64,000 bases of DNA from Candidatus Hermodarchaeota archaeon (GCA_048885925.1 JBHLLG010000002.1:38923-102922); one strand, 5' to 3'. Counted from the first letter of the stretch, positions 6,402 through 58,429 are shown. Translations and numbers: made by a program. The notes: a model not told the origin generated them from the letters alone.

Positions 6402-6436
6402 CTCAAACTGAATTTATATAATATAACATATCAAAA

Positions 6437-6447
6437 ATTGGACTCCA
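6437..6447. promoter_or_regulatory. Palindromic motif copy ATTGGACTCCA (A-run upstream, T-run downstream)
   Basis: aaaaATTGGACTCCAttttttttt lies in the 114-bp gap between the hydrolase and the zinc-ribbon membrane gene, about 70-110 nt upstream of that gene's possible starts. The same 10-mer recurs at 54190, 55821 and 56872. Confidence 0.35.
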
Positions 6448-6515
6448 TTTTTTTTTTAATCAGTTAATCACATCTTTTTATTAAAAAAAATAAGAAAATA
6501 AAAAGTTGATAAATT

Positions 6516-7001
6516 TTGAATTGGGAGAATTTTTTTAATGATATTAATATGTGGTATAATATTTTTATCGACTGGTATTTAGAGCAACCGATTTATGGCC
6601 AAGTGTTTGCTTTGATAGGAATAATTGCTCTTATAGCTTTATTGATTACACTTATCTATTTTATTATAAAAGGAATTGCTTATTTAGTATATTATATTTT
6701 TAAAGGATTATACTATCTTCTTAGATATATAGGTTATGGATTCTATAAACTGTTCGAAGGATTCTACTACTTAGTTTCAGGAAAATCAAAATCTTCAAAT
6801 CAAATAGATCTCCAGGCAAATATTAATGAAAATTTTACTAGTGAATATCATTATAATTTAGAATATTGTAGTGAATGCGGGAGGAAATTTTCTGAAAAAA
6901 TGAAATATAGCTTGGAAAGAAATGGGATGGTTTTTTGTGTGAATTGTGGAAAAAAATTCATCAGAAATAATAATCTAAAATCTATTACCCTTTCTCATTA
7001 A
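6516..7001 (+). CDS. Membrane protein with C-terminal zinc ribbon
   Basis: 161 aa with N-terminal hydrophobic helices. C-terminal CSECGRKF...CVNCGKKF forms a CxxC...CxxC ribbon. TTG start, with an alternative ATG at MWYNIF. Confidence 0.5.
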   Translation: MNWENFFNDINMWYNIFIDWYLEQPIYGQVFALIGIIALIALLITLIYFIIKGIAYLVYYIFKGLYYLLRYIGYGFYKLFEGFYYLVSGKSKSSNQIDLQANINENFTSEYHYNLEYCSECGRKFSEKMKYSLERNGMVFCVNCGKKFIRNNNLKSITLSH

Positions 7002-7080: not shown

Positions 7081-8670
7081 ATGGCTGTTTATATTTGTAG
7101 AACATGCAATTATGCATTTCCAGATGAACTTTCACATTTAATAGAAAATAATATTCAAGTATATTGTGAAAGGTGTGGTTCACCTTTTAATTTAGAAGGA
7201 GTTAAATTTAGACCTGCTCCAACTCCATATATAAGAGATAAAAAGCCATATCGTACTTTATCTGAAAGTAAATCATCTAATTTAGAAAAAGTTATTCGTA
7301 GTTTGGATAAAATATCCCTTATTCCAATAATTATATTTACTATTATTAGTTTTATTTGGATTTTTGAGATCTTTTTTGATCCAAGCAATTGGTTTGATAT
7401 TCTTTTTAGATATGGACTTCAAGGATTTATTGGATTTTTCATCATAATATATGATAGTTCTTATATTTCATCTAAAATAAAAGAAAAAAATTATAACGTC
7501 ATATTTCTTGATGCCTTCTGTTGGGGAATTTTAGGTTGTGTCCTGTACGGTACTGGCGTAATTCTTCTTATTAAAGGAATATTTATAATTCTCTATGTAA
7601 TAACTGATAAAAAGAATAATTCCTTAAAGATTTATGACTTTGGATTACTAATTAAGAATTCTCTAAATTATTTTTCAGCTAAAGCTGGCTTTTTAATTAT
7701 ATTATTCGGAATTTATGGGATTTATTTAGGAGATAATTATTTATTAGGATATGATACTTTAACAACTTTAAGAATATTCGATTTCTCTTTTGACATATCT
7801 GATTACTTTTTAACTTTAGCTATTTTGTTTATAATATCATTCATAGCTCTTATAATAGATTTTAAATCAAGAGGCAAACTTAAAGAGAAAAATGAATTTA
7901 AAGTAGGAAACGCAGTTCCAATAATTATTAGAGGAATTTTAGGAGTTATATTTTTCGCTGCCGGAATTTTTATATTATTAAAAGGAATTGTTGTTATTTT
8001 CTTATCTTTTGGAAAACCTTCTGAAATAATAAGCACCACTCCTGTAGAGGAAAAACCAGTATATTATATTCCATCTCCTCCAAGCCCTCCAAAACCTCCA
8101 GCGCCACCTATAGTTCCATATAGAGAAGTAGTGCCGTCCCAGGAAATTACTTTGAAAGATGAACAACAAAAAATTAAAGAAGTTGAACAACCAATTAGAA
8201 AAGAGCCAGAAAAGATTGAAACTCTTATAGCTAAAGAACTTGAAGAAATTCCTATTAAAGTAGATAAAGAAGAAAAAGCAAAAAGGGAAGAAGAATTTGA
8301 ATTAAAATTGCATGATTCTCTTTTACCTGTTAAAGATGAAAAAGATAAGAAATTAGTTAAAGAATATTTCTCAAAAATATTTGCTGTACTTTCAAAGGAA
8401 TTAAGGAATCAAATAAATGATTTAAAAATTTCTAAAAAAGAGAAGAAGGAATTATTAGAAGAGCTAGCCTTCTTAACAAAAGAGGAGCAAGTAAAATATA
8501 TTGCTGCTTTAGTTGATTTATACAAAGAAATACCCAAAAAATTAATTAACAGGATTCGTAAGCTTCCTAATGTTAAACCTAAACATTATGATAAGATTGT
8601 AGAACAACTGAAATATATGGATTATGAGGAACAAATAAAGTTCATTCAATTTTTAGAGGAAAACGCCTAA
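7081..8670 (+). CDS. Zinc-ribbon / multi-TM / proline-rich linker / K,E-rich coiled-coil protein
   Basis: N-terminal CRTCNYAF...CERCGSPF ribbon and about 8 hydrophobic segments, including IWIFEIFFDPSNWF. Pro-rich PSPPSPPKPPAPP linker. The C-terminal charged helical region has a repeated EEQ[VI]K[YF]I motif. Confidence 0.55.
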   Translation: MAVYICRTCNYAFPDELSHLIENNIQVYCERCGSPFNLEGVKFRPAPTPYIRDKKPYRTLSESKSSNLEKVIRSLDKISLIPIIIFTIISFIWIFEIFFDPSNWFDILFRYGLQGFIGFFIIIYDSSYISSKIKEKNYNVIFLDAFCWGILGCVLYGTGVILLIKGIFIILYVITDKKNNSLKIYDFGLLIKNSLNYFSAKAGFLIILFGIYGIYLGDNYLLGYDTLTTLRIFDFSFDISDYFLTLAILFIISFIALIIDFKSRGKLKEKNEFKVGNAVPIIIRGILGVIFFAAGIFILLKGIVVIFLSFGKPSEIISTTPVEEKPVYYIPSPPSPPKPPAPPIVPYREVVPSQEITLKDEQQKIKEVEQPIRKEPEKIETLIAKELEEIPIKVDKEEKAKREEEFELKLHDSLLPVKDEKDKKLVKEYFSKIFAVLSKELRNQINDLKISKKEKKELLEELAFLTKEEQVKYIAALVDLYKEIPKKLINRIRKLPNVKPKHYDKIVEQLKYMDYEEQIKFIQFLEENA

Positions 8671-8672
8671 AA

Positions 8673-9566
8673 ATGTCTTTAGAAAAAAAAAGAGAACCTA
8701 GAGGAACTAAAGAGAAAGAAGAGCTCCAAGAGAGTTCATTTAGGCGACTTGATTTTAAACCATTACAAGAAGTAGTCGAACTAGAAGAGAAAAAATTAGA
8801 TAAAGAGGAAATAGTTGAAGAATTAACTGAAATAGAAAAGGATGTATTAGAAATTGCTAAAGATATCTTAAAATTAAAGCGTTATGGTACTGAGTTTGAA
8901 ATTGAATCGGAAAGTCAAATCCAAAAATATCCAATAATTGAGAAGTTATATGCTAAATGTATTGCTAAACTTTCTTATAAGAAAGGATATAGTAAAGAAG
9001 AAATTTTTCTAGGCATAAGAAGTTTAGAGGCGAAAAATTGGATCGTAACAAATGAGAGACGTACTAAATTAGAGATCCTTAGTAATGAAAAATTGGTAAA
9101 AATACTTGATTTCATTAAAAATAACCCGGGAATCCATGCTAGAGATGATAAAATCGAGGAAGAATTAGAAATAACCAGAACTCCTTTTTTAAAACACGTA
9201 ATGACACTTGAAAGATTTAATCTGATAAGATCTAAAAAAATAGGAAAAACTCTTCATTATTTTTTAAGTGATATGCCAGATGATTATGATAAATTTAAAG
9301 TTATTTTTCTAAATCCTTTAATTCCCAAAATTTTAGAAGAATTATTTAAAGATGAAGAAATTTCAGTTTCTCAGATTGGAGAAAATTTAGATATGTATTC
9401 TGGTACAATTTTATACCATATTAAAAAATTAAAAGAACTTAATCTTATAAGAACTACAAGAAATAAATCTAACAACAAAATATTTTTGGTAAATTTTGAG
9501 CTTCTCAAAAAATATAATACCTTTTTTGATGAACCCGATTTTAGTCAGCTGCTAAAAGGATTTTAA
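8673..9566 (+). CDS. Multi winged-helix (ArsR/HTH_20-like) DNA-binding protein with acidic N-terminus
   Basis: Starts 2 nt after the stop of 7081..8670. Two clear wHTH units: ILDFIKNNPGIHARD...ITRTPFLKHVMTLERFNLIRSKKIGKTLHYF, and ISVSQIGENLDMYSGTILYHIKKLKELNLIRTTR..KIFL. Confidence 0.55.
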   Translation: MSLEKKREPRGTKEKEELQESSFRRLDFKPLQEVVELEEKKLDKEEIVEELTEIEKDVLEIAKDILKLKRYGTEFEIESESQIQKYPIIEKLYAKCIAKLSYKKGYSKEEIFLGIRSLEAKNWIVTNERRTKLEILSNEKLVKILDFIKNNPGIHARDDKIEEELEITRTPFLKHVMTLERFNLIRSKKIGKTLHYFLSDMPDDYDKFKVIFLNPLIPKILEELFKDEEISVSQIGENLDMYSGTILYHIKKLKELNLIRTTRNKSNNKIFLVNFELLKKYNTFFDEPDFSQLLKGF

Positions 9567-15864: not shown

Positions 15865-18147
15865 TTACGTACGTTTATAGATAAATCTTTCCCAACTCTT
15901 CTTACTTGGCGCTTCTAATGGCATATTTTTACGCTTGCGAATATCCATAATGATACTTTCTTCTAATTGAGGAGGAACTTTCTCAAATCCTAAAAATTCA
16001 TATCCAAAAAATGCCCGTCCCGCTGTTGAGCCCCTAATATCGTCAGCAAGTCCTATAGTTTCTGCAGCAGGAATTTGACCTTGAATTCTTACATATTCTC
16101 CCTCAGGAATAACGTTAGTAATTCGACCTCTTCTTCTAGTTATAATACTAGAAACTGATCCTTCTGTACCCTGTGGTGATTTCACATCTATCTTCTGTAT
16201 TGGCTCAAAAAGGTGTGGATTTGCATCCAACATAGCCAAGGATACAGCAGAGAAGAACATACCAGCAATCTGCCCATATTGCGTATGTCTGGGGTCTTCA
16301 TGGATTGTCATATCAGTAAAAACGACTTTGATTCCAGCAGCAGGTTCTTTTGCTAGGATACAATTGCCAAGCCAATCCCTAAATGCAGCACTTAAATATG
16401 ATCTTACACGATCAAATCTCTGTAATCCTGAGGTACCATTTACAAGAACACTTCCATGATAGAGATCAACAATTCTTCTTGCTTCTTTAGCGTCCCATCC
16501 AGCTTCTTCTCTAAGAATTTGAGCTCGATCTTTCTCATTTTGCAGATCATTCACTTTACCGGTTTCTATCAAACGTTCAGTTTTTTCATCTAAGGGTTCT
16601 ATATATAATAAAACACGATTATGCGTGTTTGCTGATTTAGTATAATAATCAGGACTTTTTTGAGTAATTTTTTCCCTATATACGATTATTGGTTCTCCAA
16701 TATTAATTTGCACTTGATTATTTATACGTTTTACTAAAATTTCTATCTGTAATGGGTCGATTCCAGATAAAATAAATTCTCCTGATTCTTGATCTCTTCT
16801 ATATTCTGCTGTTGGATCTGCTTTTAACCATTTACTTACAACCTCATCCAGTTTATCTATATCATGTGGATCTTTTGGTTTAATGCTTCTCGAGACAACA
16901 GCTTCACATGCATAATGGATTTTTTCAAAGGCGGGTATTCTTTTCCTTTCTTCCTTATCTTTAGGGACATCATTTGCGTTAATAAAGGTTTCTCCTGATG
17001 GAGAAATGAATCCATACAATGCAAATAAATTGCCAGCAGGAACTTTAGGAATATCTAAAATATCTGTAATTTCCATCACTCCAAGTCTTTTCACTCGAGT
17101 TTGTGAATCACTATTAACAAGATAAAGTGTATCACTTTGATCAAAGGTACCCGAAAAAACACGACCGATAAGTGTGGCCTGATAATTTCTTTTAGGATCA
17201 AGGAAAATCTTAGTAATCATACCATAAAGAGGTCCTTTAGGGTCGCTTTTAACAAGAGCTTGACCAAGTTCCGATTTTAAGTCACCTCCCCAAATGTGGG
17301 GAATTCTATACTTTGAAGCAGTAACTGGATCTGGTAAATGATCTACAATCATTCTTAGCATAGGTTCATCTAGAGGTAGATTGTCCCTTAACCACTGAAT
17401 ATCACCTTCATTATATTTAGCAAAAACATCTTGGGGTTTCAAACCTTTTTCCAATAAAATCTCGTAAGTAAAACCCCAACCATGTTTTGCTGAACCAACT
17501 GCCACAGAATTTTTCGCAAAATCAATACTCCAATCTGAGCCTTCTGGTCTAACCTTCTTGATCAGATCATTTACTTCTCTAGTGATTTTATCAATCTTAG
17601 CAAAGGTTTGTTGTGGGGTTAATTTAAGCTCACTAATAAGGCGGTCAACTTTATTAATGAAAAGAACGGGTTTGCAGTATTCCTCACCGACAGACAATCT
17701 AATATTAGTTTCTGTTTGTGTCATAACGCCCTCAAGAGCATCCACCAATATAATAGCACCATCACTGCCTCGAAGAGCTCTTGAGACCTCTCCGGTAAAA
17801 CTGATATGACCGGGGGTATCATTGAGCTGAATAATATAAGATTCATCATCTTCTGGCTTTCTAGGGTCATTAAATGCAAGAAGAACTACACTTGTGAATA
17901 TAGTAATGCCCCGTTCCTGCTCCTCGTCTTTCAGTAGATCAAGTAAATCTTAATCTAAATCTGAATCTGTCATTTGGAGCTGTCCGGCATCCTCGGGTCG
18001 CATGAGACCAGCTCTGCGTAGTAAGTAATCAGTAGCTGTAGTTTTGCCATGATCAATATGAGCTGTGATTGAAAACAACCTTTTCTTTTTATATGAACCT
18101 TCTGTAACCAATTTTGCTATAGTCTCAGGGTTCTTTACTTTAACCAT
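15865..18147 (-). pseudogene. Translation elongation factor aEF-2, interrupted by a single in-frame TAA at 17950..17952 (pseudogene, base-call error or readthrough)
   Basis: Track ORFs 17950..18147 (AHIDHGKTT G1) and 15865..17748 are in the same frame. The 201 nt between them is open and encodes DLLDLLKDEEQERGITI...LNDTPGHISF...GAIILVDALEGV. G4 is NKVDR, and domains II-V are intact to the natural stop at 15865. Confidence 0.85.
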
Positions 18148-51978: not shown

Positions 51979-53964
51979 TTAAAACAAACAATCTTTTAGA
52001 GAAATCGCACTGATTTTAGAATCAAATAAGTTATTCAATAATTCCGGTAATGAATTTTCATTAGTATTCATTTTTCCAGTGAAAATAACTCCTTTATTAA
52101 TGACTTCTTGAAATTTTTTAAATAACAAGATCCTTTTATCAAGAGAAAGACTTGATTCATTTCTTATTAGTTCAGAGGAAAATCCATTTAATTTTTGGTT
52201 GTAGGGTATAGTTTCATTATAACATGTATCATTTAAATAAGAGTCGTTATGGGGTTGGTTCAGAATAAAATAGTTATTATCAACTTCATTTCGCTCTTCA
52301 ATAAGGTCTCTCATTAATGACAGGATTCTTAGAGCAAAAGTTTCGCTGGATTTTGTTCTATCAAGTTCAATTCCGCAATGGTTTAATATTGCTTCATTTA
52401 AGCCAAAAAAGCTAATAGATTTTAAGGCATTTTTAAATAAATTTTTTTGAGGTATATTGAAAATTCGTGTGGTTATAGTGTTCCATGAATCAAGAGCTTT
52501 TAATTTCTTCTGTACTAATCTTTCTTTATGTTTAAACAAATCGAATACAGAATTTATTTTATCTTGAATTAGTTCCAAAAATAACCCGTCATTTTGTTTT
52601 GCGTTTACAGAAATCGTATATAAATTTATCAAGATCTTATCTAGAACAATTGTATCTTCGTTGCGATTATCTATTTGAGTAATAATGGAATTGAATAGAT
52701 TCGAATAGTCTTTTTCATATATAATTAAATTATTACCCTTTAACCCCGAGATAAATTTACTGATAGATTCACTACTTAATTCTGAAGAAAAATATTTAGA
52801 ATATTCAAAAAGAAGTAGCGGTCTTATAAGATCTGGGTTGAAATTATTCATTGAATTAAGAAATTGTTTATCAATTTCATTTTGAATTGATAAATTTTCA
52901 ATTAATTTTCCATTATAAGTAAAATCTAATGATAAATGAGTTTTACCATCGTTAATTCGATTATTAAACCGGAGAATTTGAGTAGTTAATAAATCCAAAC
53001 TAAATGAACTAATTTTAGGTAATTGTAAATAGAAGAGAAATTGACAATTAAAATCACCTAAAAGTAAATCTTCAGTATAAAATTGCTTTAATTGATATAA
53101 AATATTACTAAAATTAGTAATTAAATTGATTCCATCTTTACGTCTTTCTATTATTTTAGGTTTCATTGACATCTTTTTAAAGAAATAATCAATTAGTGTT
53201 TTAGCATTTACATATAAACCAGTTGGTCTTAAGCTCCAATAATTAAGATTAAGTAAAGCAATTTCACCCGATAGATATAAGTCAGCAAGATTTTTTGGTA
53301 GAAGATTTAAAAGTAAAAATTGTTCAGAAACATCCGAACCTAATTTTTTAATAAAATCTTCAGGAGCCAGTTCATTATTCTTAGAATTAAAAAGTTGAAA
53401 TGCCTCGAATGGAGGTGTTCCTAAACGGGTTAATTTATGTCTAACTTCCTCTAGACCATTTTCTAACAAAATTGCGTTTATGTATTCGCGCATTAATGGT
53501 GCTGTCATGTAATCTATATTTGTCTTAGAAAGACGTTCTTCTACTTCATGTGCGATTTGTTTAGCTAAATAACGCTCTAATTCACCCTCTCTTATTAAAT
53601 ATTCTTCAATTTTGCTTGAATCAAATACTTCTTTTGAATATTTTGATGTTCGGATTATTTTAATTTTATTTTGCTTATTTAAAATCTGCTCAATTGATAA
53701 AATTTTATCAATAATTTGCTCTCCTAATAAAGATATTGAATATCCTTCTTCAGAGGATTGAATTAATTTACTTCTTTTTAAGATTTTTAAATGGAATGAT
53801 AAATTAACAGAAGTTAGGTTATTATCTAATATATCTTTCTGAAGTTTTGAAAAAGGTATTGGTACTTGAGCGTTTTTTAATTTTCTTAAAATCTCAATCC
53901 TAACCTTTTGACCTATTGTTTTTAATTGTTTTTCTAGAATTGTTTGTTTTTTGTCGGTATCCAA
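51979..53964 (-). CDS. wHTH + ATP-cone + degenerate anaerobic-RNR(NrdD)-like domain protein (putative nucleotide-sensing regulator)
   Basis: N-terminal ArsR-like wHTH (IGQKVRIEILRKL...SFHLKILKRSKLIQ). ATP-cone (IKIIRTSKYSKEVFDSSKIEEYLI...AKQIAHEVEERL...MREYINAILLENG). Then LADLYLSGEIALLNLNYW, which parallels the NrdD aHesGiiHvHDiDy region with the His/Asp residues lost. No C-terminal glycyl-radical motif. TTG start. Confidence 0.5.
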   Translation of the reverse strand: MDTDKKQTILEKQLKTIGQKVRIEILRKLKNAQVPIPFSKLQKDILDNNLTSVNLSFHLKILKRSKLIQSSEEGYSISLLGEQIIDKILSIEQILNKQNKIKIIRTSKYSKEVFDSSKIEEYLIREGELERYLAKQIAHEVEERLSKTNIDYMTAPLMREYINAILLENGLEEVRHKLTRLGTPPFEAFQLFNSKNNELAPEDFIKKLGSDVSEQFLLLNLLPKNLADLYLSGEIALLNLNYWSLRPTGLYVNAKTLIDYFFKKMSMKPKIIERRKDGINLITNFSNILYQLKQFYTEDLLLGDFNCQFLFYLQLPKISSFSLDLLTTQILRFNNRINDGKTHLSLDFTYNGKLIENLSIQNEIDKQFLNSMNNFNPDLIRPLLLFEYSKYFSSELSSESISKFISGLKGNNLIIYEKDYSNLFNSIITQIDNRNEDTIVLDKILINLYTISVNAKQNDGLFLELIQDKINSVFDLFKHKERLVQKKLKALDSWNTITTRIFNIPQKNLFKNALKSISFFGLNEAILNHCGIELDRTKSSETFALRILSLMRDLIEERNEVDNNYFILNQPHNDSYLNDTCYNETIPYNQKLNGFSSELIRNESSLSLDKRILLFKKFQEVINKGVIFTGKMNTNENSLPELLNNLFDSKISAISLKDCLF

Positions 53965-53985
53965 TTTTCTTATTGCCTTAATAAT

Positions 53986-54200
53986 CTTTCATTAAATCTG
54001 CTTAACTAAATAATAAGTTTAACAGTTATATAAAAATTTAGCAATTTTCTAAATTTTAAATGGATTTAGATAATATGTAGGTGATATGAAACTTTTCTTT
54101 AAGAAAGATAATCTTGTAAGTAAATCAATTTTATTCATAAAAAACTTAACTTCTTCAGTTAATAATGTCGCATTATTTAAAATATAAAGATTGGACTCCA
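53986..54200. repeat. Conserved ~215-bp upstream segment, copy A (ends in the palindromic motif)
   Basis: Aligns without gaps, at roughly nine of ten positions by eye, to 56668..56881 (shared ...aaatctgcttaactaaataata...aatggatttag.taatatgtaggtgatatgaaactttt...attggactcc). Confidence 0.7.
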
Positions 54201-54202
54201 AT
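54190..54202. promoter_or_regulatory. Palindrome ATTGGACTCCAAT
   Basis: Perfect 13-bp palindrome (ATTGGA-C-TCCAAT), 79 nt upstream of ATG 54281, in the divergent gap with the wHTH/ATP-cone gene. Confidence 0.4.
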
Positions 54203-54280
54203 TTTGTTATATTTCATTTAAATGGGTTAAAAGTTGTAATTAAAAATTCGAAAAATCTAACAAAAAAGGTGAAAACTATT

Positions 54281-55774
54281 ATGGTAAAGAGAAAACAATT
54301 TACTGAATTAGTTTTAGTAGAAACAGATAAAGAGATTTTAGAGGAAAGGGGCAAAAATCTTTTCCAAATAGATTTCTTAAAGGCAGCAATGATATTTTTA
54401 GTTATATTTGATCATATGGTAGCATGGGGGGTAAAAGATCAGATGGGTGTTACCTTATGGGAAAGGATCTCAATTCCGGTCTTTTTAGTGATAATGGGAT
54501 TTAATATGGGACTTTCTTTTCAAAGAAGAGGAGTTTCCAAGTTAAAGGAATTATACTCCTGGAGTTATTTTAAAAGTAAAATTTTACGATATATCGTACC
54601 ATTTCTTGTATTATATGGATTTTCTACGATAATTGGACTAAGTTTTTATCAATTTAATATTACAGCGATGTACCATGGACAATATTATCCAGAACATGGA
54701 TTTATTCAATTATTTACCGGAATTTTACCATTTTGGGGTGCTGGAAATTGGTTTATTCCTGTAATTCTCGGTTCAATAGTAATATTCCCATTACTATATT
54801 GGGCATTTACTAAGAAACCAATCCTAACATTAATTCTTTGTTTTGCTGTTGAGATCATAATGCAATTAATTGTATTTTTCGTAATAGGACAAATTACAAC
54901 TTGGGAAGAAGCGCATATTGTTAATTTATTTATGACAAGTTTTCCATTCTATCTATCTGCTATAGGATTAGGTCTGTGGTTTTCATTTAATCGTAAGCCT
55001 TTTTCAAGACGTAACTTGTTTATCTGGATTTTATTTCCAATTAGTTTAACATATATGATATTCTACCAATTCTTCGATTTTCGATTCCGAATCGGGGATG
55101 TTCCACTATTCAGAGGAGATTACCTTTTCTTAATATTTCCATACTCAACAGTATTATTTCTATTAGTAATGATGATATTACCTCAGAAGTCAGACAACAA
55201 ATTTTCACGAGCAATTTCATTAATAGGAAAGTCAACATATCATATATTACTTACTCAAATGTTGGGTTACGGAATAATTTTTATGTGGAGAAATACAACT
55301 TTTCTTATAGATGTTGGATTCACATTTTTGGAGGCATTGCTCTTAATATTTGCTTGGATGATATTTATCCCTTTCGGTATTCTATGGTATAAAATTGATC
55401 AAGAAACAAATTTAATTAAGCGTTTGTTATACTATGTAAATTTCTTCTTAGTTTATGGCGGTTTAGTACATTTCATCTTTATTTACATTTATTATATATT
55501 GCATCCAACCTTTAATGCGTGGATACCAATCACTTTGATTGTTATGCTTATTTATGGGGCTGCAGGACTAATCATTAAATTTTTTGTGAAAAAACCAATT
55601 AAAACGACTACTCTGGCTATTTGGACATCATTTTTAGTATATAATTTCTTTATTTCAGTACTATACATTGAAATTCTCCCTCCTACTGAGTATTTGGTAC
55701 AAAATATTTCCACAGGTACATTCCTCATCTTCGCAATAATAGGTACAGTTTTAGATTATACTCTTAGGAAATAA
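54281..55774 (+). CDS. Acyltransferase-3 family membrane protein, paralogue A, with C-terminal two-TM hairpin module
   Basis: FQIDFLKAAMIFLVIFDHMVAW is a typical Acyl_transf_3 N-terminus, with more than 10 TM segments. Start set at ATG 54281 (MVKRKQFTELVLVETDKEILEE) by alignment to the paralogue's MKDRKTDTKVVLVETEKDFLEE. The track TTG at 54191 lies inside the palindrome. Confidence 0.75.
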   Translation: MVKRKQFTELVLVETDKEILEERGKNLFQIDFLKAAMIFLVIFDHMVAWGVKDQMGVTLWERISIPVFLVIMGFNMGLSFQRRGVSKLKELYSWSYFKSKILRYIVPFLVLYGFSTIIGLSFYQFNITAMYHGQYYPEHGFIQLFTGILPFWGAGNWFIPVILGSIVIFPLLYWAFTKKPILTLILCFAVEIIMQLIVFFVIGQITTWEEAHIVNLFMTSFPFYLSAIGLGLWFSFNRKPFSRRNLFIWILFPISLTYMIFYQFFDFRFRIGDVPLFRGDYLFLIFPYSTVLFLLVMMILPQKSDNKFSRAISLIGKSTYHILLTQMLGYGIIFMWRNTTFLIDVGFTFLEALLLIFAWMIFIPFGILWYKIDQETNLIKRLLYYVNFFLVYGGLVHFIFIYIYYILHPTFNAWIPITLIVMLIYGAAGLIIKFFVKKPIKTTTLAIWTSFLVYNFFISVLYIEILPPTEYLVQNISTGTFLIFAIIGTVLDYTLRK

Positions 55775-55820
55775 ATCTTTTTTTTTTTTATTATTTAGTT
55801 TTAATTAAACGAAATGAAAA

Positions 55821-55833
55821 ATTGGACTCCAAT
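55821..55833. promoter_or_regulatory. Palindrome ATTGGACTCCAAT (extended AAATTGGACTCCAATTT)
   Basis: Perfect palindrome 47 nt after the stop of paralogue A and 77 nt upstream of ATG 55910. A TATA-like aatatataaa follows within ~10 nt. Confidence 0.4.
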
Positions 55834-55909
55834 TTAGTTTAATATATAAATAATAATATTATTTTTTAACATTAGATTTATTTTTAAATATAAAATAAGA
55901 GGTTGTTTT

Positions 55910-56581
55910 ATGCCTTTAAATGAAATTAGAAAGAAGCTCAGTATAGGGACTACTGGATTATGGATTATTTTTGGGATTGTTACCATTGTAATGATAGCTC
56001 TTTTGGTAGGCGAAGTTTTTGGACCTTATGATTATTGGATTTCAATAATTGCTATTGGAGTTGTACTAATATTAGCAATTGCTGCTACTATTGTTGATTT
56101 AAGTTCTAAAAGGAAAGGAAAAGTAGGCATTATAGGAATATGGACTATTTTTGGAATGACTTTTATTGTTTTTGCTGCTCTAATCATAGGAGAAGTTTTT
56201 GGACCCGATGATTTTTGGATTCCTATAATCCCTGTTGGTACTTTACTGATTCTAGCGATTATCGCCACAATTTATGAATATATATCTGGAGATGTAAGAT
56301 TTTGTCCTATATGCGGAAAAAGATTTGAGAAAAAATGGGATTTTTGTCAAGAATGTGGTTCAAGAGTTCTTATGAATTGCCCATCATGTGGTACAAAAAT
56401 AAAAGGGAATCCGAAATTTTGCGTCAAATGTGGAATAAATTTAAGTGAAATTGAAGTAATTCAAACTTCTTCTCCTAGTTTTAAATTTAAAAGAGAAGGA
56501 TATACAAAATTATGTAGGCAATGTGGAGCACCAGCTAAACCTGATGCTAAATACTGCGTATATTGTGGTGCTTCTCAATAA
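55910..56581 (+). CDS. Membrane protein: duplicated two-TM hairpin module + triple zinc-ribbon C-terminus
   Basis: Two internal repeats (LWIIFG...GEVFGPYDYWI...LILAIAATIVD and IWTIFG...GEVFGPDDFWI...LILAIIATIYEY). Then CPICGKRF..CQECGS, CPSCGT..CVKCG and CRQCGA..CVYCG. Confidence 0.6.
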   Translation: MPLNEIRKKLSIGTTGLWIIFGIVTIVMIALLVGEVFGPYDYWISIIAIGVVLILAIAATIVDLSSKRKGKVGIIGIWTIFGMTFIVFAALIIGEVFGPDDFWIPIIPVGTLLILAIIATIYEYISGDVRFCPICGKRFEKKWDFCQECGSRVLMNCPSCGTKIKGNPKFCVKCGINLSEIEVIQTSSPSFKFKREGYTKLCRQCGAPAKPDAKYCVYCGASQ

Positions 56582-56667
56582 TTTTTTTTACTTTTACGAA
56601 TTAAAGTTATAGCATTTTAAACTGAACTTTATTGTCAATAAAAATTGGACTACTTTATAATTTACTT

Positions 56668-56881
56668 CTTTCTTTAAATCTGCTTAACTAAATAATATGG
56701 TTCACAATTATATAAAAATTTAGGAATATTCCAAGTAATCAATGGATTTAGGTAATATGTAGGTGATATGAAACTTTTTTTTAAGAAAGATAATCTTATA
56801 AGTAAATCAATTTTATTCATATAAAATTTAACTTCTTTAGTTAATGATGTCCCATTATTTAAGATATAAAAATTGGACTCC
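56668..56881. repeat. Conserved ~215-bp upstream segment, copy B (ends in half-palindrome ATTGGACTCC)
   Basis: See 53986..54200. Preceded at 56644..56653 by a degenerate motif copy, ATTGGACTAC. Confidence 0.7.
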
Positions 56882-56962
56882 TTATTTATTATAATTCTTT
56901 TTTTTTGCAATAATATTATCTTAATGTTTCTTAAAGAATTTAAATAAAAAAGTGAAACTTAA

Positions 56963-58429
56963 ATGAAAGATAGAAAAACAGATACAAAAGTAGTTTTAGT
57001 AGAAACTGAAAAAGATTTCCTAGAAGAAAGTAGAGAGAGATTCTTCCAAGTAGATGTTCTAAAAGCAATTATGATCTTTTTAGTCATATTCGATCATATG
57101 GTATCCTGGGAAGTAAAAAGAGAGATAGGTGTGTCCTTATGGGAAAGGATCTCAATTCCGGTCTTTTTAGTAATAATGGGCTTTAATATGGGGATTTCAT
57201 TTCAAAAAAAAGGAGTCCAATCATTAAAAGAATTATATTCTTGGAGCTACTTTAAAAGTAAGATTTTACGGTATATTTTACCATTTCTAGTTTTGTATGC
57301 AGCTTCAACGTTTATAGGCTTATTTATGTACGGATTTGATCTCTCAGCAATGTATCATGGACAAAATTACCCAGATCGTGGCTTTATACTCTTATTTATA
57401 GGATTTTTGCCATTTTGGGGCCCTGGAAATTGGTTTCTTCCAGTAATTTTTGGATCTATCTTAATATTTCCTTTATTATATTGGGCATTTACAAAGAAAC
57501 CAATCCTAACATTAATTCTTTGTTTCGCTGTTGAGATCATAATGCAATTGATTGTATTTTTCGTTATAGGACAAATTACAACTTGGGAAGAAGCGCATTA
57601 TTACAATTTATTCGCGACCAGCGTTTTATTCTATCTATCTGCTATAGGATTAGGTCTGTGGTTTTCATTTAATCGTAAGCCTTTTTCAAGACGTAACTTG
57701 TTTATCTGGATTTTATTTCCAATTAGTTTAACATATATGATATTCTACCAATTCTTCGATTTTCGATTCCGAATCGGGGATGTTCCACTATTCAGAGGAG
57801 ATTACCTTTTCTTAATATTTCCATATTCTGCGTTTTTATTTCTACTGGCAATGAGATTTTTACCTCAAAAGTCTGAAGGGGGAATTTCTCGAGCGATATC
57901 TTTAATTGGAAAATCAACATACCATATTTTACTTACACAAATATTAGGTTACGGTATGATCTATGCTTTTTGGGGCACTCATTATGGTATTACTGCTGGT
58001 TTTGGACCTGAAAAAATAATAGACATGATTGTACTCTGGATCTTTTTCATCTCATTTGGAATTTTATGGTATAAAATAGATCAAAATAAAGACTTACGAC
58101 GACGCGCCTTATATTATATCAACTTTTTTATAGTATTTGCATCACTCTTGCTTTTAACTTTCTGGGTTCAAGAATTTTGGGTACCAATACCTCTTTTGAT
58201 AATTATTATTTATGCTATTGTAGCTTTAATCACCAAGTTTATCATTAAAAAACCGCTTCAAACAGGGAGTCTTAGTTTATGGACTATATTTTTAATGATG
58301 GCCTTTATAATGATGATTCTTCAAGTAGAAATATTTCAACCGAAAAGAGTTTGGATTACCTTCATTCCAATTGCGATTACTCTCTCTCTTGCGATTGTTG
58401 GGACTTATTTAGATTATAAACTAAGTTAA
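56963..58429 (+). CDS. Acyltransferase-3 family membrane protein, paralogue B, with C-terminal two-TM hairpin module
   Basis: FQVDVLKAIMIFLVIFDHMVSW. Colinear with paralogue A and contains the 199-nt identical tract. Confidence 0.75.
   Translation: MKDRKTDTKVVLVETEKDFLEESRERFFQVDVLKAIMIFLVIFDHMVSWEVKREIGVSLWERISIPVFLVIMGFNMGISFQKKGVQSLKELYSWSYFKSKILRYILPFLVLYAASTFIGLFMYGFDLSAMYHGQNYPDRGFILLFIGFLPFWGPGNWFLPVIFGSILIFPLLYWAFTKKPILTLILCFAVEIIMQLIVFFVIGQITTWEEAHYYNLFATSVLFYLSAIGLGLWFSFNRKPFSRRNLFIWILFPISLTYMIFYQFFDFRFRIGDVPLFRGDYLFLIFPYSAFLFLLAMRFLPQKSEGGISRAISLIGKSTYHILLTQILGYGMIYAFWGTHYGITAGFGPEKIIDMIVLWIFFISFGILWYKIDQNKDLRRRALYYINFFIVFASLLLLTFWVQEFWVPIPLLIIIIYAIVALITKFIIKKPLQTGSLSLWTIFLMMAFIMMILQVEIFQPKRVWITFIPIAITLSLAIVGTYLDYKLS

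What the first reader, a model, noticed from the sequence alone, without database searches (positions are those of the whole stretch)
53965..56962. Recurrent perfect palindrome ATTGGACTCCAAT upstream of a set of membrane / zinc-ribbon genes
The exact 10-mer ATTGGACTCC occurs at 6437, 54190, 55821 and 56872, each embedded in an A-run ... T-run context (aaaaATTGGACTCCAAtttt). Degenerate copies lie at 56644 (ATTGGACTAC) and 58630 (TTGGACTCA). The copies at 54190 and 55821 are perfect 13-17-bp palindromes (TTGGA-C-TCCAA core). With a 1-nt centre it cannot form an RNA hairpin, so a dimeric DNA-binding protein site is the natural reading. All four exact copies are intergenic, lie roughly 70-110 nt upstream of the start of a membrane-protein gene (6516, 54281, 55910, 56963), and sit ~10 nt upstream of TATA-like AT tracts. 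Assuming ~30% G+C, a rough estimate is far fewer than one chance occurrence of this 10-mer in 64 kb on both strands. Only the 54190/56872 pair is explained by the local duplication. Candidate cognate regulators are the divergently transcribed wHTH/ATP-cone protein (51979..53964) and the multi-wHTH protein next to the 6.4-kb copy (8673..9566).
Basis: seen in the sequence. Interest (0 to 1): 0.7.

Follow-up and report, generated by a model that had tools for sequence, protein, structure and literature searches.

The report
Conserved upstream promoter element in Asgard archaea
A 14-base DNA word (AAAAATTGGACTCC) sits exactly 7 bases in front of the TATA box of a small set of genes, mostly for membrane proteins with zinc-ribbon domains, and is conserved across many Lokiarchaeota-type (Asgard) genomes, so it is most likely the docking site of a dedicated transcription factor that has not been described.

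Summary
ATTGGACTCC occurs 5 times in the window, against 0.1 expected.

The conserved unit is the directional 14-mer AAAAATTGGACTCC, not the palindrome. It always points towards the downstream gene. It is followed after exactly 7 nt by a TATA-like TTWWA in 25 of 28 sites that were not selected for this. A conserved TTAA, in the position of an initiator, lies about 26 nt further on, and the start codon about 83 nt from the motif start. This places the motif at about -51 to -38, just upstream of the BRE position, which is T-rich here and A-rich in other promoters.

The motif is kept in orthologous promoters of at least 9 related genomes while its flanks diverge. In Asgard genome and sediment metagenome contigs it precedes more than 10 gene families. 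These are mostly small membrane zinc-ribbon proteins, plus Acyl_transf_3 acyltransferases, a 2TM protein and an Rce1-like protease.

One target operon ends in a very conserved protein of three winged-helix-like domains (8673-9566). It is the best candidate for the factor, but this is untested.

My reading is an activator site of the known archaeal kind (like TFB-RF1 or EarA) with a new motif and regulon. No published description was found.

The parts
6433..6446 (+). Motif copy 1, AAAAATTGGACTCC (exact 14-mer). It heads the operon 6516-7001 / 7081-8670 / 8673-9566.
   Evidence: The same position is occupied in orthologous operons in L023, L133, L186, L236, L253 and others.
6454..6461 (+). TATA-like box TTTTAATC, 7 nt after copy 1. 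The inferred transcription start is near 6483.
   Evidence: for the spacing. One search shows the conserved TTAA about 26 nt downstream of the TATA centre. The start site is inferred, not mapped.
6516..7001 (+). Target gene, family A: a 161-aa membrane protein with a C-terminal zinc ribbon (CSEC...CVNC).
   Evidence: It is the largest family downstream of the motif in the scans, with 32 sites.
7081..8670 (+). Second operon gene, family E: a 529-aa protein with an N-terminal zinc ribbon and, from reading the sequence of a homologue, several hydrophobic stretches; no transmembrane prediction was run. It has no Pfam match.
   Evidence: In some contigs the motif lies directly upstream of this family.
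8673..9566 (+). Third operon gene: a 297-aa protein with three winged-helix-like domains (ArsR/MarR-like HTH). It is the candidate cognate factor (inferred).
   Evidence: Pfam and NCBIfam HTH matches. Identity is 76-85% across the more than 110 clusters below 90% identity among the 120 listed. The operon with the motif is conserved in 9 motif-selected contigs and 2 TF-anchored contigs. The AF2 model shows three wH-like domains, pLDDT 69.5.
54186..54199 (+). Motif copy 2, AAAGATTGGACTCC (1 mismatch), in front of acyltransferase AT1. The TATA-like TTATATTT lies at 54207-54214.
   Evidence: It is conserved upstream of AT1 orthologues in L002-L005, L007, L008, L249 and L250.
54281..55774 (+). Target gene AT1, an Acyl_transf_3 membrane acyltransferase (497 aa).
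55817..55830 (+). Motif copy 3 (exact 14-mer; here part of a 17-bp palindrome), in front of the 223-aa protein with several hydrophobic stretches and three double zinc ribbons. The TATA-like TTTAATAT lies at 55838-55845.
   Evidence: It is conserved, palindrome included, in L002, L003, L004 and L250.
55910..56581 (+). Target gene: 223-aa protein with six CxxC pairs (DZR / Zn_Ribbon_1); its N-terminal half reads as hydrophobic, membrane-spanning stretches (no transmembrane prediction was run).
56640..56653 (+). Degenerate copy AAAAATTGGACTAC without the TTWWA spacing (TTTAC). It is probably the relic of the original AT2 promoter, left just 5' of the converted block.
   Evidence: It is conserved in L003 at 12364. 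The block 56667-56901 duplicates 53985-54219. The relic reading is an inference.
56868..56881 (+). Motif copy 4 (exact 14-mer), in front of acyltransferase AT2. The TATA-like TTATAATT lies at 56889-56896.
   Evidence: It lies within the duplicated upstream block. AT2 orthologues in L004, L008 and L249 carry their own copy.
56963..58429 (+). Target gene AT2, an Acyl_transf_3 paralogue (488 aa).
57212..57221 (-). Fifth exact 10-mer, inside the AT2 coding sequence. It is not part of the system.
   Evidence: It has no A-run and no TATA spacing. It is absent in L002 (ATTGAACTCC) and in L004.

Best explanation
AAAAATTGGACTCC is a directional upstream promoter element of a regulon in Lokiarchaeota-type (Promethearchaeota) Asgard archaea.

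Geometry. It lies at about -51 to -38 from the inferred transcription start. A fixed 7-bp, T-rich stretch at the BRE position separates it from the TATA box.

Mechanism. Most likely it is bound by a sequence-specific transcription factor that acts as an activator, helping TFB/TBP to assemble on promoters whose BRE is poor. This is how archaeal TFB-RF1, EarA, Ptr2 and the ara-box factor work.

Regulon. In the window it comprises four promoters:
- the operon 6516 / 7081 / 8673;
- AT1 (54281);
- the 223-aa zinc-ribbon gene (55910);
- AT2 (56963).
Elsewhere it includes at least eight further families, mostly small membrane proteins with zinc ribbons.

Candidate factor. The best candidate is the 297-aa protein with three winged-helix-like domains encoded at 8673-9566. 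It would then control its own operon.

Shown: the motif, its orientation, its spacing to the TATA box, its conservation and its target set.
Inferred: the transcription start, activation rather than repression, and the identity of the factor.
For: Enrichment: 5 copies against 0.10 expected.

Conservation. The motif is kept upstream of AT1, of the zinc-ribbon gene and of AT2 in the related genomes L002-L005, L007, L008, L249 and L250, while the flanks and the 7-nt spacer sequence diverge.

Fixed geometry.
- 25 of 28 intergenic sites not selected for it have TTWWA exactly 7 nt after the 14-mer. My own composition estimate of the chance rate is about 0.02 per position.
- All sites share the orientation of the downstream gene.

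Profile of 89 non-redundant sites.
- Nothing is conserved upstream of the motif, apart from a preference for T at the base just before it (0.65).
- An unconstrained TTAA peak lies at +49 to +52, about 26 nt after the TATA centre.
- An A-rich leader follows, with the start codon near +83.

Gene specificity. There are no further copies in front of the ribosomal, RNA polymerase or replication genes flanking the orthologous loci.

Wider occurrence.
- Metagenome scan: about 100 of 120 hits are AT-rich sediment contigs in promoter context.
- Viral control: 3 hits, with no promoter-like flanks, read as coding matches.

Targets. Zinc-ribbon families are enriched, 6/13 against 26/374, p = 2e-4. Pfam finds DZR/Zn_Ribbon_1, 2TM, Rce1-like and Acyl_transf_3.

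BRE position. A is 0.11-0.21 at -3/-4 from the TATA in motif promoters, against 0.55-0.57 in 84 other promoters.

Factor. The operon family A - family E - wHTH with the motif is conserved in 9 motif-selected contigs. It is also found in 2 of 2 genomes retrieved through the factor itself: L253 exact, L251 AAAAACTGGACTCC. The factor is 76-85% identical across the more than 110 clusters below 90% identity among the 120 listed.

Literature. [quoted passage not shown] TFB-RF1 is encoded downstream in the operon it activates (PMC5937170, PMC5512572).
Against: No transcription start, binding or expression data exist for any site, so the promoter geometry is inferred from sequence alone.

Sampling limits:
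- The metagenome pattern itself required TTWWA.
- Many sites are orthologues, so they are not independent.

Weak points in the mechanism:
- The BRE consensus of these organisms is unknown. The comparison rests on noisy TATA assignment in DNA of about 28% G+C.
- The core GGACTCC with its A/T-tract flanks is loosely two-fold symmetric. A dimeric repressor is therefore not excluded.

Weak points for the factor:
- The link rests on gene position at one locus per genome.
- Its HTH matches are below the NCBIfam cut-offs.
- The structural model is mediocre, pLDDT 69.5 and pTM 0.40.
Confidence: 0.6

Rival explanations
1. It is the operator of a dimeric winged-helix repressor. The palindrome TTGGA-C-TCCAA binds a homodimer that blocks TFB/TBP access to the adjacent BRE/TATA.
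For: The core GGACTCC is a perfect 7-bp palindrome. The profile of 89 sites shows mirror-image A-tract and T-tract flanks, with A at +15 in 75% and T at +18 to +21 in 71-82%. The copy in front of the 223-aa gene is a conserved 17-bp palindrome in L003, L004 and L250, and a 15-bp one in L002. ArsR/MarR-type proteins are usually dimeric repressors (established knowledge).
Against: The right arm is not conserved at AT1 or AT2 orthologues, while the left arm is invariant. Strict orientation and an invariant 7-nt distance to the TATA box are not needed for steric repression. The site does not overlap the TATA box or the inferred start. The T-run on the right may simply belong to the BRE/TATA region.
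Confidence: 0.2
2. It is a core-promoter class element read by a paralogue of a general factor (an alternative TFB or TBP) rather than by a gene-specific regulator. That would make it a distal or extended BRE defining a separate promoter class.
For: The distance to the TATA box is invariant and the orientation strict. GGACTCC matches the eukaryotic BREu consensus SSRCGCC at 6 of 7 positions; both the consensus and the comparison come from my own knowledge. A TFB paralogue whose target promoters show a different BRE-TATA spacing was reported in Sulfolobus (bioRxiv 10.64898/2026.09.06.749720).
Against: A BRE is the 6-7 bp directly abutting the TATA box, with key contacts at -3 and -6 (PMC5512572). 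This motif ends 7 bp away, outside that range. No TFB or TBP paralogue was found or sought near the sites. The similarity to BREu is only a resemblance.
Confidence: 0.1
3. It is an RNA-level element. The motif would be transcribed and pair with the ribosome-binding region, acting as an anti-Shine-Dalgarno sequence.
For: In some family A and D promoters, ACTCCAAAT is complementary to ATTTGGAGT at the ribosome-binding site about 60 nt downstream.
Against: Almost nothing is conserved upstream of the motif, and there is no TATA box at the distance that would be needed to transcribe it. The fixed spacing to a downstream TATA box has no RNA rationale. The complementarity is absent at AT1, AT2, the 223-aa gene, family C, and the family A members with CCATTTT, so there is no covariation. 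Rfam gives no match.
Confidence: 0.03
4. It is the remnant of local duplication, or the terminus of a dispersed MITE-like repeat, with no regulatory role.
For: The 54190/56872 pair lies in a duplicated 235-nt block. Family A and D promoters share about 55 nt of similarity beyond the motif.
Against: Copies at 6433 and 55817 share nothing with the block beyond the motif and the TATA. There are no terminal inverted repeats and no target-site duplications. Every intergenic copy sits at the same distance and orientation from a start codon. The motif is conserved over long divergence while its flanks are not.
Confidence: 0.02

Closest known systems
TFB-RF1 (PF1088) binding site in Pyrococcus furiosus (Ochs et al. 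2012; PMC5937170)
   Same: The site lies just upstream of a weak BRE and a TATA box. The factor gene is the downstream gene of an operon that carries the site, giving auto-activation. The regulon is small and membrane- or transport-related. In Thermococcales the three elements (site, weak BRE, TATA) are conserved in orthologous promoters.
   Different: The TFB-RF1 motif is a palindrome, TCTG-N5-CAGA. Here the motif is a different, asymmetrically conserved 14-mer. The lineage (Asgard) and the target set (zinc-ribbon membrane proteins, acyltransferases) differ. The candidate factor has three winged-helix-like domains in tandem. Nothing has been tested biochemically.
EarA sites of the fla promoter (Methanococcus maripaludis), Ptr2 sites (Methanocaldococcus jannaschii) and the ara-box (Sulfolobus solfataricus)
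   Same: These are activator sites immediately upstream of the BRE/TATA that compensate for sub-optimal core elements (PMC5512572).
   Different: EarA uses four 6-bp repeats and Ptr2 uses paired palindromic sites. Here there is a single 14-bp site per promoter at one invariant distance. The sequences are unrelated.
BRE (archaeal) and BREu (eukaryotic TFIIB recognition element, SSRCGCC)
   Same: It is a directional element upstream of the TATA box. GGACTCC resembles SSRCGCC at 6 of 7 positions (comparison from my own knowledge).
   Different: A BRE abuts the TATA box. This motif is separated from it by 7 bp, and it occurs only at a small subset of promoters.

Membership tests
Archaeal upstream activator site (TFB-RF1 / EarA / Ptr2 type) | [quoted passage not shown] | tested here: met
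   The 14-mer ends 7 nt before a TTWWA TATA-like box in 25 of 28 unselected sites. A 6-7 nt BRE fits in the gap (PMC5512572). The TATA and TSS are inferred from sequence.
Archaeal upstream activator site (TFB-RF1 / EarA / Ptr2 type) | The promoter has a BRE or TATA that deviates from the organism's consensus | tested here: inconclusive
   The BRE position is T-rich (A 0.11-0.21 at -3/-4), against A 0.55-0.57 in 84 other promoters. The consensus for these organisms is not established, and TATA assignment in AT-rich DNA is noisy.
Archaeal upstream activator site (TFB-RF1 / EarA / Ptr2 type) | A specific protein binds the site and raises recruitment of TFB/TBP and transcription | not testable with these tools
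   This needs EMSA, footprinting, in vitro transcription or ChIP.
Archaeal upstream activator site (TFB-RF1 / EarA / Ptr2 type) | The site is conserved in orthologous promoters, and the regulator gene is linked to a site (autoregulation) | tested here: met
   Orthologous promoters. An operon ending in the wHTH gene carries the motif in 9 + 2 contigs. That this gene encodes the binder is an inference.
BRE / BREu (TFB/TFIIB recognition element) | Directly abuts the TATA box (within 6-7 bp, contacts at -3 and -6) | tested here: not met
   The motif ends 7 bp upstream of the TATA-like box, and the intervening 7 bp are not conserved in sequence.
BRE / BREu (TFB/TFIIB recognition element) | Present at most promoters of the organism | tested here: not met
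   Only 4-5 of about 50 gene starts in the window carry it. None is found in front of the flanking ribosomal, RNA polymerase or replication genes of the related loci.
Palindromic operator of a dimeric wHTH repressor | Two-fold symmetry is conserved across sites and orthologues | tested here: not met
   Symmetry is conserved only at the promoter of the 223-aa gene. At AT1 and AT2 the right arm varies freely while the left arm is fixed. The 7-bp core GGACTCC is symmetric.
Palindromic operator of a dimeric wHTH repressor | Overlaps the TATA/BRE or the transcription start | tested here: not met
   The site ends 7 bp upstream of the TATA-like box and about 37 bp upstream of the inferred start.
MITE-like dispersed repeat | Terminal inverted repeats, target-site duplication, and insertion without regard to gene position or strand | tested here: not met
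   There is one copy per promoter, always in the same orientation and at the same distance from the start codon. Similarity outside the motif and TATA is limited to related promoters.
ArsR/SmtB-MarR winged-helix regulators (for the candidate factor 8673-9566) | Significant match to the family HTH models above the curated cut-off | tested here: inconclusive
   Pfam HTH_24 scores 44.4 bits against a cut-off of 21.9, and MarR 26.1 against 24.6. NCBIfam HTH_metalloreg scores 46.9 against a cut-off of 55. The PDB sequence search gives only weak hits, best E = 0.004. The fold search gives weak matches to proteins that I recognise as tandem-wH proteins and to ArsR-type regulators, with TM about 0.2 over the whole chain.

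The most novel reading that the evidence does not exclude
The element and the three-domain winged-helix protein may form a dedicated envelope-signalling circuit of Lokiarchaeota. In this reading a single-site, fixed-geometry promoter class drives a family of membrane-anchored zinc-ribbon proteins. One of them, the 529-aa family E protein co-transcribed with the factor, acts as a membrane-tethered partner or anti-factor. That would be the functional analogue of bacterial ECF sigma / zinc-binding anti-sigma pairs, built on the archaeal/eukaryotic-type transcription machinery.
Probability: 0.12. Interest if true: 0.75.

Novelty: new member of a known kind. Interest (0 to 1): 0.5.

Why it matters
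I am not aware of any gene-specific transcription regulon defined in Asgard archaea, the closest known relatives of eukaryotes, and the paper searches found none.

This element gives a sharply defined cis-motif with fixed promoter geometry. It also gives a target list centred on the abundant but uncharacterised small membrane zinc-ribbon proteins, and a concrete candidate factor.

All of this can be tested directly in the cultured strains by TSS mapping and transcriptomics, and in vitro by EMSA or DAP-seq.

The motif could also serve as a marker to annotate co-regulated genes in Lokiarchaeota MAGs, and as a candidate regulated promoter for future genetic tools.

Tried and rejected
- Rfam, at gathering threshold for the whole window and at E <= 1 for 53900-57000: no RNA family. 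No tRNA genes.
- RNA pairing of the motif with the ribosome-binding site: present only in a subset of promoters and without covariation, so rejected.
It was useful only for the 8 Asgard hits.
- The viral-contig scan gave 3 hits that read as coding matches (the 14-mer can encode K-N-W-T-P). I used it as a negative control.
- The human-gut metagenome hits are one repeated sequence in contigs of 43-49% G+C with no promoter-like flanks; I set them aside as unrelated to the Asgard element.
- Exact look-up of the window's 223-aa protein returned only a 2-kb contig.
- The structure prediction of the candidate factor was mediocre. The fold search gave only generic winged-helix matches, including proteins I recognise as tandem-wH ones (the top TFIIIC tauB-DNA entry, chains of the yeast and human RNA polymerase III complexes, human ESCRT-II, ScpB) and ArsR-type regulators. 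It does not inform on function.
- Literature searches for the motif string and for Asgard promoter elements found no description.
- The small ORF in the duplicated upstream block (from the ATG near 54087) is truncated in the second copy. I read this from the sequence and judged it non-coding.
- The E-[VI]-F-x-P module is not shared by the target genes.


Full report
**1. The observation**

The 10-mer ATTGGACTCC is present at 6437, 54190, 55821 and 56872 on the + strand, as reported. A fifth copy on the - strand at 57212 was missed. That makes 5 matches against 0.10 expected, and none of 100 dinucleotide-preserving shuffles reached 5.

Reading the flanks shows that the shared word is longer: AAAAATTGGACTCC.
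- It is exact at 6433, 55817 and 56868.
- It has one mismatch at 54186 (AAAG) and one at 56640 (ACTAC).
- Matches with 2-3 mismatches are at chance level, 20 against 16 expected.

The copy at 57212 (-) is inside the coding sequence 56963-58429. It lacks the A-run and the downstream TATA-like tract. The 58630 'degenerate copy' has no supporting context.

The 54190/56872 pair lies in a duplicated 235-nt upstream block of 88% identity. The copies at 6433 and 55817 are independent of that block.

**2. The organism and the genes**

The window has about 28% G+C. It encodes archaeal information-processing genes, including S7, S12 and RNA polymerase A''.

Homologues of its proteins carry submitter labels Promethearchaeota, Lokiarchaeia, Hermod-, Thor- and Hodarchaeota. 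NCBI's Promethearchaeota is a phylum of the kingdom Promethearchaeati. That this is the Asgard group, and the phylum the former Lokiarchaeota, is my own knowledge.

The four intergenic copies precede:
- a 161-aa membrane protein with a zinc ribbon (6516-7001);
- two paralogous Acyl_transf_3 acyltransferases, AT1 (54281-55774) and AT2 (56963-58429);
- a 223-aa protein with hydrophobic, membrane-type stretches and three double zinc ribbons (55910-56581).

**3. Conservation in related genomes**

Using AT1 homologues, I fetched the syntenic region (NrdD-like gene, AT1, zinc-ribbon gene, AT2, S7) from nine other assemblies. Their AT1 identity ranges from 95% to 56%.

A copy of the motif stands in front of AT1, of the zinc-ribbon gene and of AT2 where these are present. 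The surrounding sequence diverges.

In the more distant genomes the word drifts only at its edges: ATTGGACTGT, ATTGGACTAC, AAAAATGGACTCC, AAAATCTGGACTTC. TGGACT is the invariant core.

At AT1 and AT2 it reads CCaatttt, CCtttttc, CCtttttt, CCatcatt, GTatattt, ACtttatc or CCtcattt. The unit under selection is therefore asymmetric and directional, although its 7-bp core GGACTCC is itself a palindrome.

**4. Promoter geometry**

I took 28 intergenic sites that were found by orthology or by the plain 14-mer, so not selected for what follows the motif. In 25 of them TTWWA sits exactly 7 nt after the 14-mer, as TTATATTT, TTTAATTC, TTATAGAT or TTAAATTT. The other three have ATATATAA, TTATTATC and ATAAATTC at that place. 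My own composition estimate for TTWWA at a fixed position in such DNA is about 0.02.

A profile of 89 non-redundant sites shows the following.
- Almost nothing is conserved upstream of the motif (only T at 0.65 just before it), and there is no upstream TATA.
- A is preferred at +15, followed by a T-run to +21.
- The TATA box occupies +22 to +29. This part was constrained in most of these sites by the search pattern.
- An unconstrained peak TTAA lies at +49 to +52. That is about 26 nt after the TATA centre, where an archaeal initiator is expected (PMC8553660 abstract: TATA about 28 nt upstream of the start).
- An A-rich leader follows, and the start codon is tightly clustered near +83.

This places the motif at roughly -51 to -38, outside the transcript, immediately upstream of the 6-7-bp BRE position.

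That position is T-rich in motif promoters, with A at 0.11-0.21 at -3/-4 from the TATA. In 84 other promoters of the same contigs with a strict TATA match it is A-rich, 0.55-0.57. This comparison is noisy but consistent with a non-consensus BRE.

**5. Distribution and targets**

The scan of one genome per species for the 14-mer stopped at 120 rows, and most hits were random bacterial matches. Eight hits were in Asgard MAGs. Seven of these were in promoter context, six with the 7-nt spacing. From my own knowledge of how small a share of species Asgard genomes make up, I read this as a large excess; the share was not computed.

About 100 of its 120 hits were sediment contigs of 27-35% G+C in promoter context. 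The viral collection gave only three hits, which read as coding matches.

Clustering the downstream ORFs gave these families:
- family A, the 161-aa membrane zinc-ribbon protein (32 sites);
- the acyltransferases together with the 223-aa double-zinc-ribbon protein (18);
- 57-67-aa zinc-ribbon proteins (12);
- 122-aa zinc-ribbon membrane proteins (12);
- about 540-aa proteins with an N-terminal zinc ribbon and many hydrophobic, membrane-type stretches (7);
- 2TM-domain proteins (5);
- 169-aa proteins with a C-terminal zinc ribbon (4);
- a 298-aa protein with an N-terminal zinc ribbon;
- an Rce1-like protease with a zinc ribbon;
- a 481-aa protein with many hydrophobic stretches and a cluster of C-terminal CxxC pairs;
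- a PNPOx-like protein, and others.

At family level, 6 of 13 target families carry a CxxC...CxxC pattern, against 26 of 374 background families from the same contigs (odds ratio 11, p = 2e-4). This count is conservative because several target families fell out of the automatic classification.

In the window and in the flanks of the related loci, no ribosomal, RNA polymerase or replication gene has the motif. It therefore marks a specific gene set, not promoters in general.

**6. Candidate factor**

The copy at 6433 heads an operon: family A (6516), family E (7081), and a 297-aa protein (8673-9566) whose start codon follows family E's stop after two bases.

This arrangement, with the motif in front, recurs in nine motif-selected contigs. 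It also appears in two of two genomes that I retrieved through the 297-aa protein itself. L253 has the exact 14-mer and L251 has AAAAACTGGACTCC.

What is known about the protein:
- It has ArsR/MarR-type winged-helix matches.
- An AF2 model of moderate quality shows three winged-helix-like domains.
- It is 76-85% identical across the more than 110 clusters below 90% identity among the 120 listed. It is much better conserved than its operon partners.

A protein with three such domains in tandem could read an asymmetric 14-bp site as a monomer, but this is inference.

It is conserved next to AT1, but it has no link to any other site.

**7. Mechanism**

Taken together, four features fit the known archaeal activator design: a single site, strict orientation, one invariant distance to the TATA box, and a poor BRE in between. 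In that design a factor bound just upstream of the BRE helps TFB/TBP assemble.

Known examples are TFB-RF1 in Pyrococcus, EarA in Methanococcus, Ptr2, and the Sulfolobus ara-box (PMC5937170, PMC5512572). TFB-RF1 is itself the downstream gene of the operon it activates, as proposed here.

I put this reading at about 0.6. The rivals are:
- a dimeric repressor operator, 0.2;
- an element read by a paralogue of a general factor, 0.1. This is prompted by the fixed geometry, by the 6/7 resemblance of GGACTCC to BREu, and by a report that the target promoters of a TFB paralogue show a different BRE-TATA spacing;
- RNA-level or repeat explanations, each below 0.05.

**8. Novelty and limits**

Searches of the paper library found no description of the motif or of promoter elements specific to Asgard archaea. 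The kind of element is known. The motif, its geometry, its regulon and its lineage are new.

The limits are as follows.
- There are no experimental data.
- Many sites are orthologues.
- The metagenome contigs carry no taxonomy. I judged them Asgard-like from their composition and from shared genes.
- The transcription start, the direction of regulation and the identity of the factor are all inferred.

Noticed in passing
window 15865-18147 (- strand), stop codon at 17950-17952: The EF-2 gene has an in-frame TAA after ...QMTDSDLD. The sequence then continues in frame as DLLDLLKDEEQERGITIF... and the rest of EF-2. This could be an assembly error, a pseudogene or read-through.
   Followed up: partly
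window 53985-54219 vs 56667-56901, and 54273-54841 vs 56955-57523: The non-coding block upstream of AT1 and AT2 is more alike (88%) than the 5' coding regions (77-80%). Further into the genes there are 24-28-nt stretches of 100% identity. This suggests gene conversion between the paralogues that carried the AT1 promoter, and part of the divergent NrdD-like promoter region, in front of AT2.
   Followed up: partly
window 56640-56653: A one-mismatch copy, AAAAATTGGACTAC, sits just 5' of the converted block and has lost the TATA spacing. It is probably the stranded original AT2 promoter element, and it is also present in L003 at 12364.
   Followed up: partly
window 51979-53964 (- strand): A 661-aa protein combines an N-terminal ArsR-like wHTH (DUF7347), a weak ATP-cone match and only the C-terminal part of an anaerobic ribonucleotide reductase (NrdD profile 272-477 of 562). 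It is conserved next to AT1 in all related loci. It is unclear whether it is an enzyme or a regulator.
   Followed up: no
L023, L078, L097, L160, L163, L182, L208 and others (family A and D promoters): Beyond the motif and the TATA, these promoters share about 55 nt...TTTAATTCAATTAAAATCTCCTTTTAATTAAG... They also share a ribosome-binding region, ATTTGGAGTGATA, whose first 9 nt are complementary to the 3' part of the motif. I read this as common descent of the promoters, but the ATCTCC element at about -14 to -9 is unexplained.
   Followed up: partly
window 7081-8670 and homologues (e.g. L140 11513-13111): The family E protein has no Pfam match, yet its last ~120 residues are 62-78% identical in L187 and L236, against 39-54% for the N-terminal part of the same two proteins. 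This may be a domain that interacts with the co-transcribed winged-helix protein.
   Followed up: no
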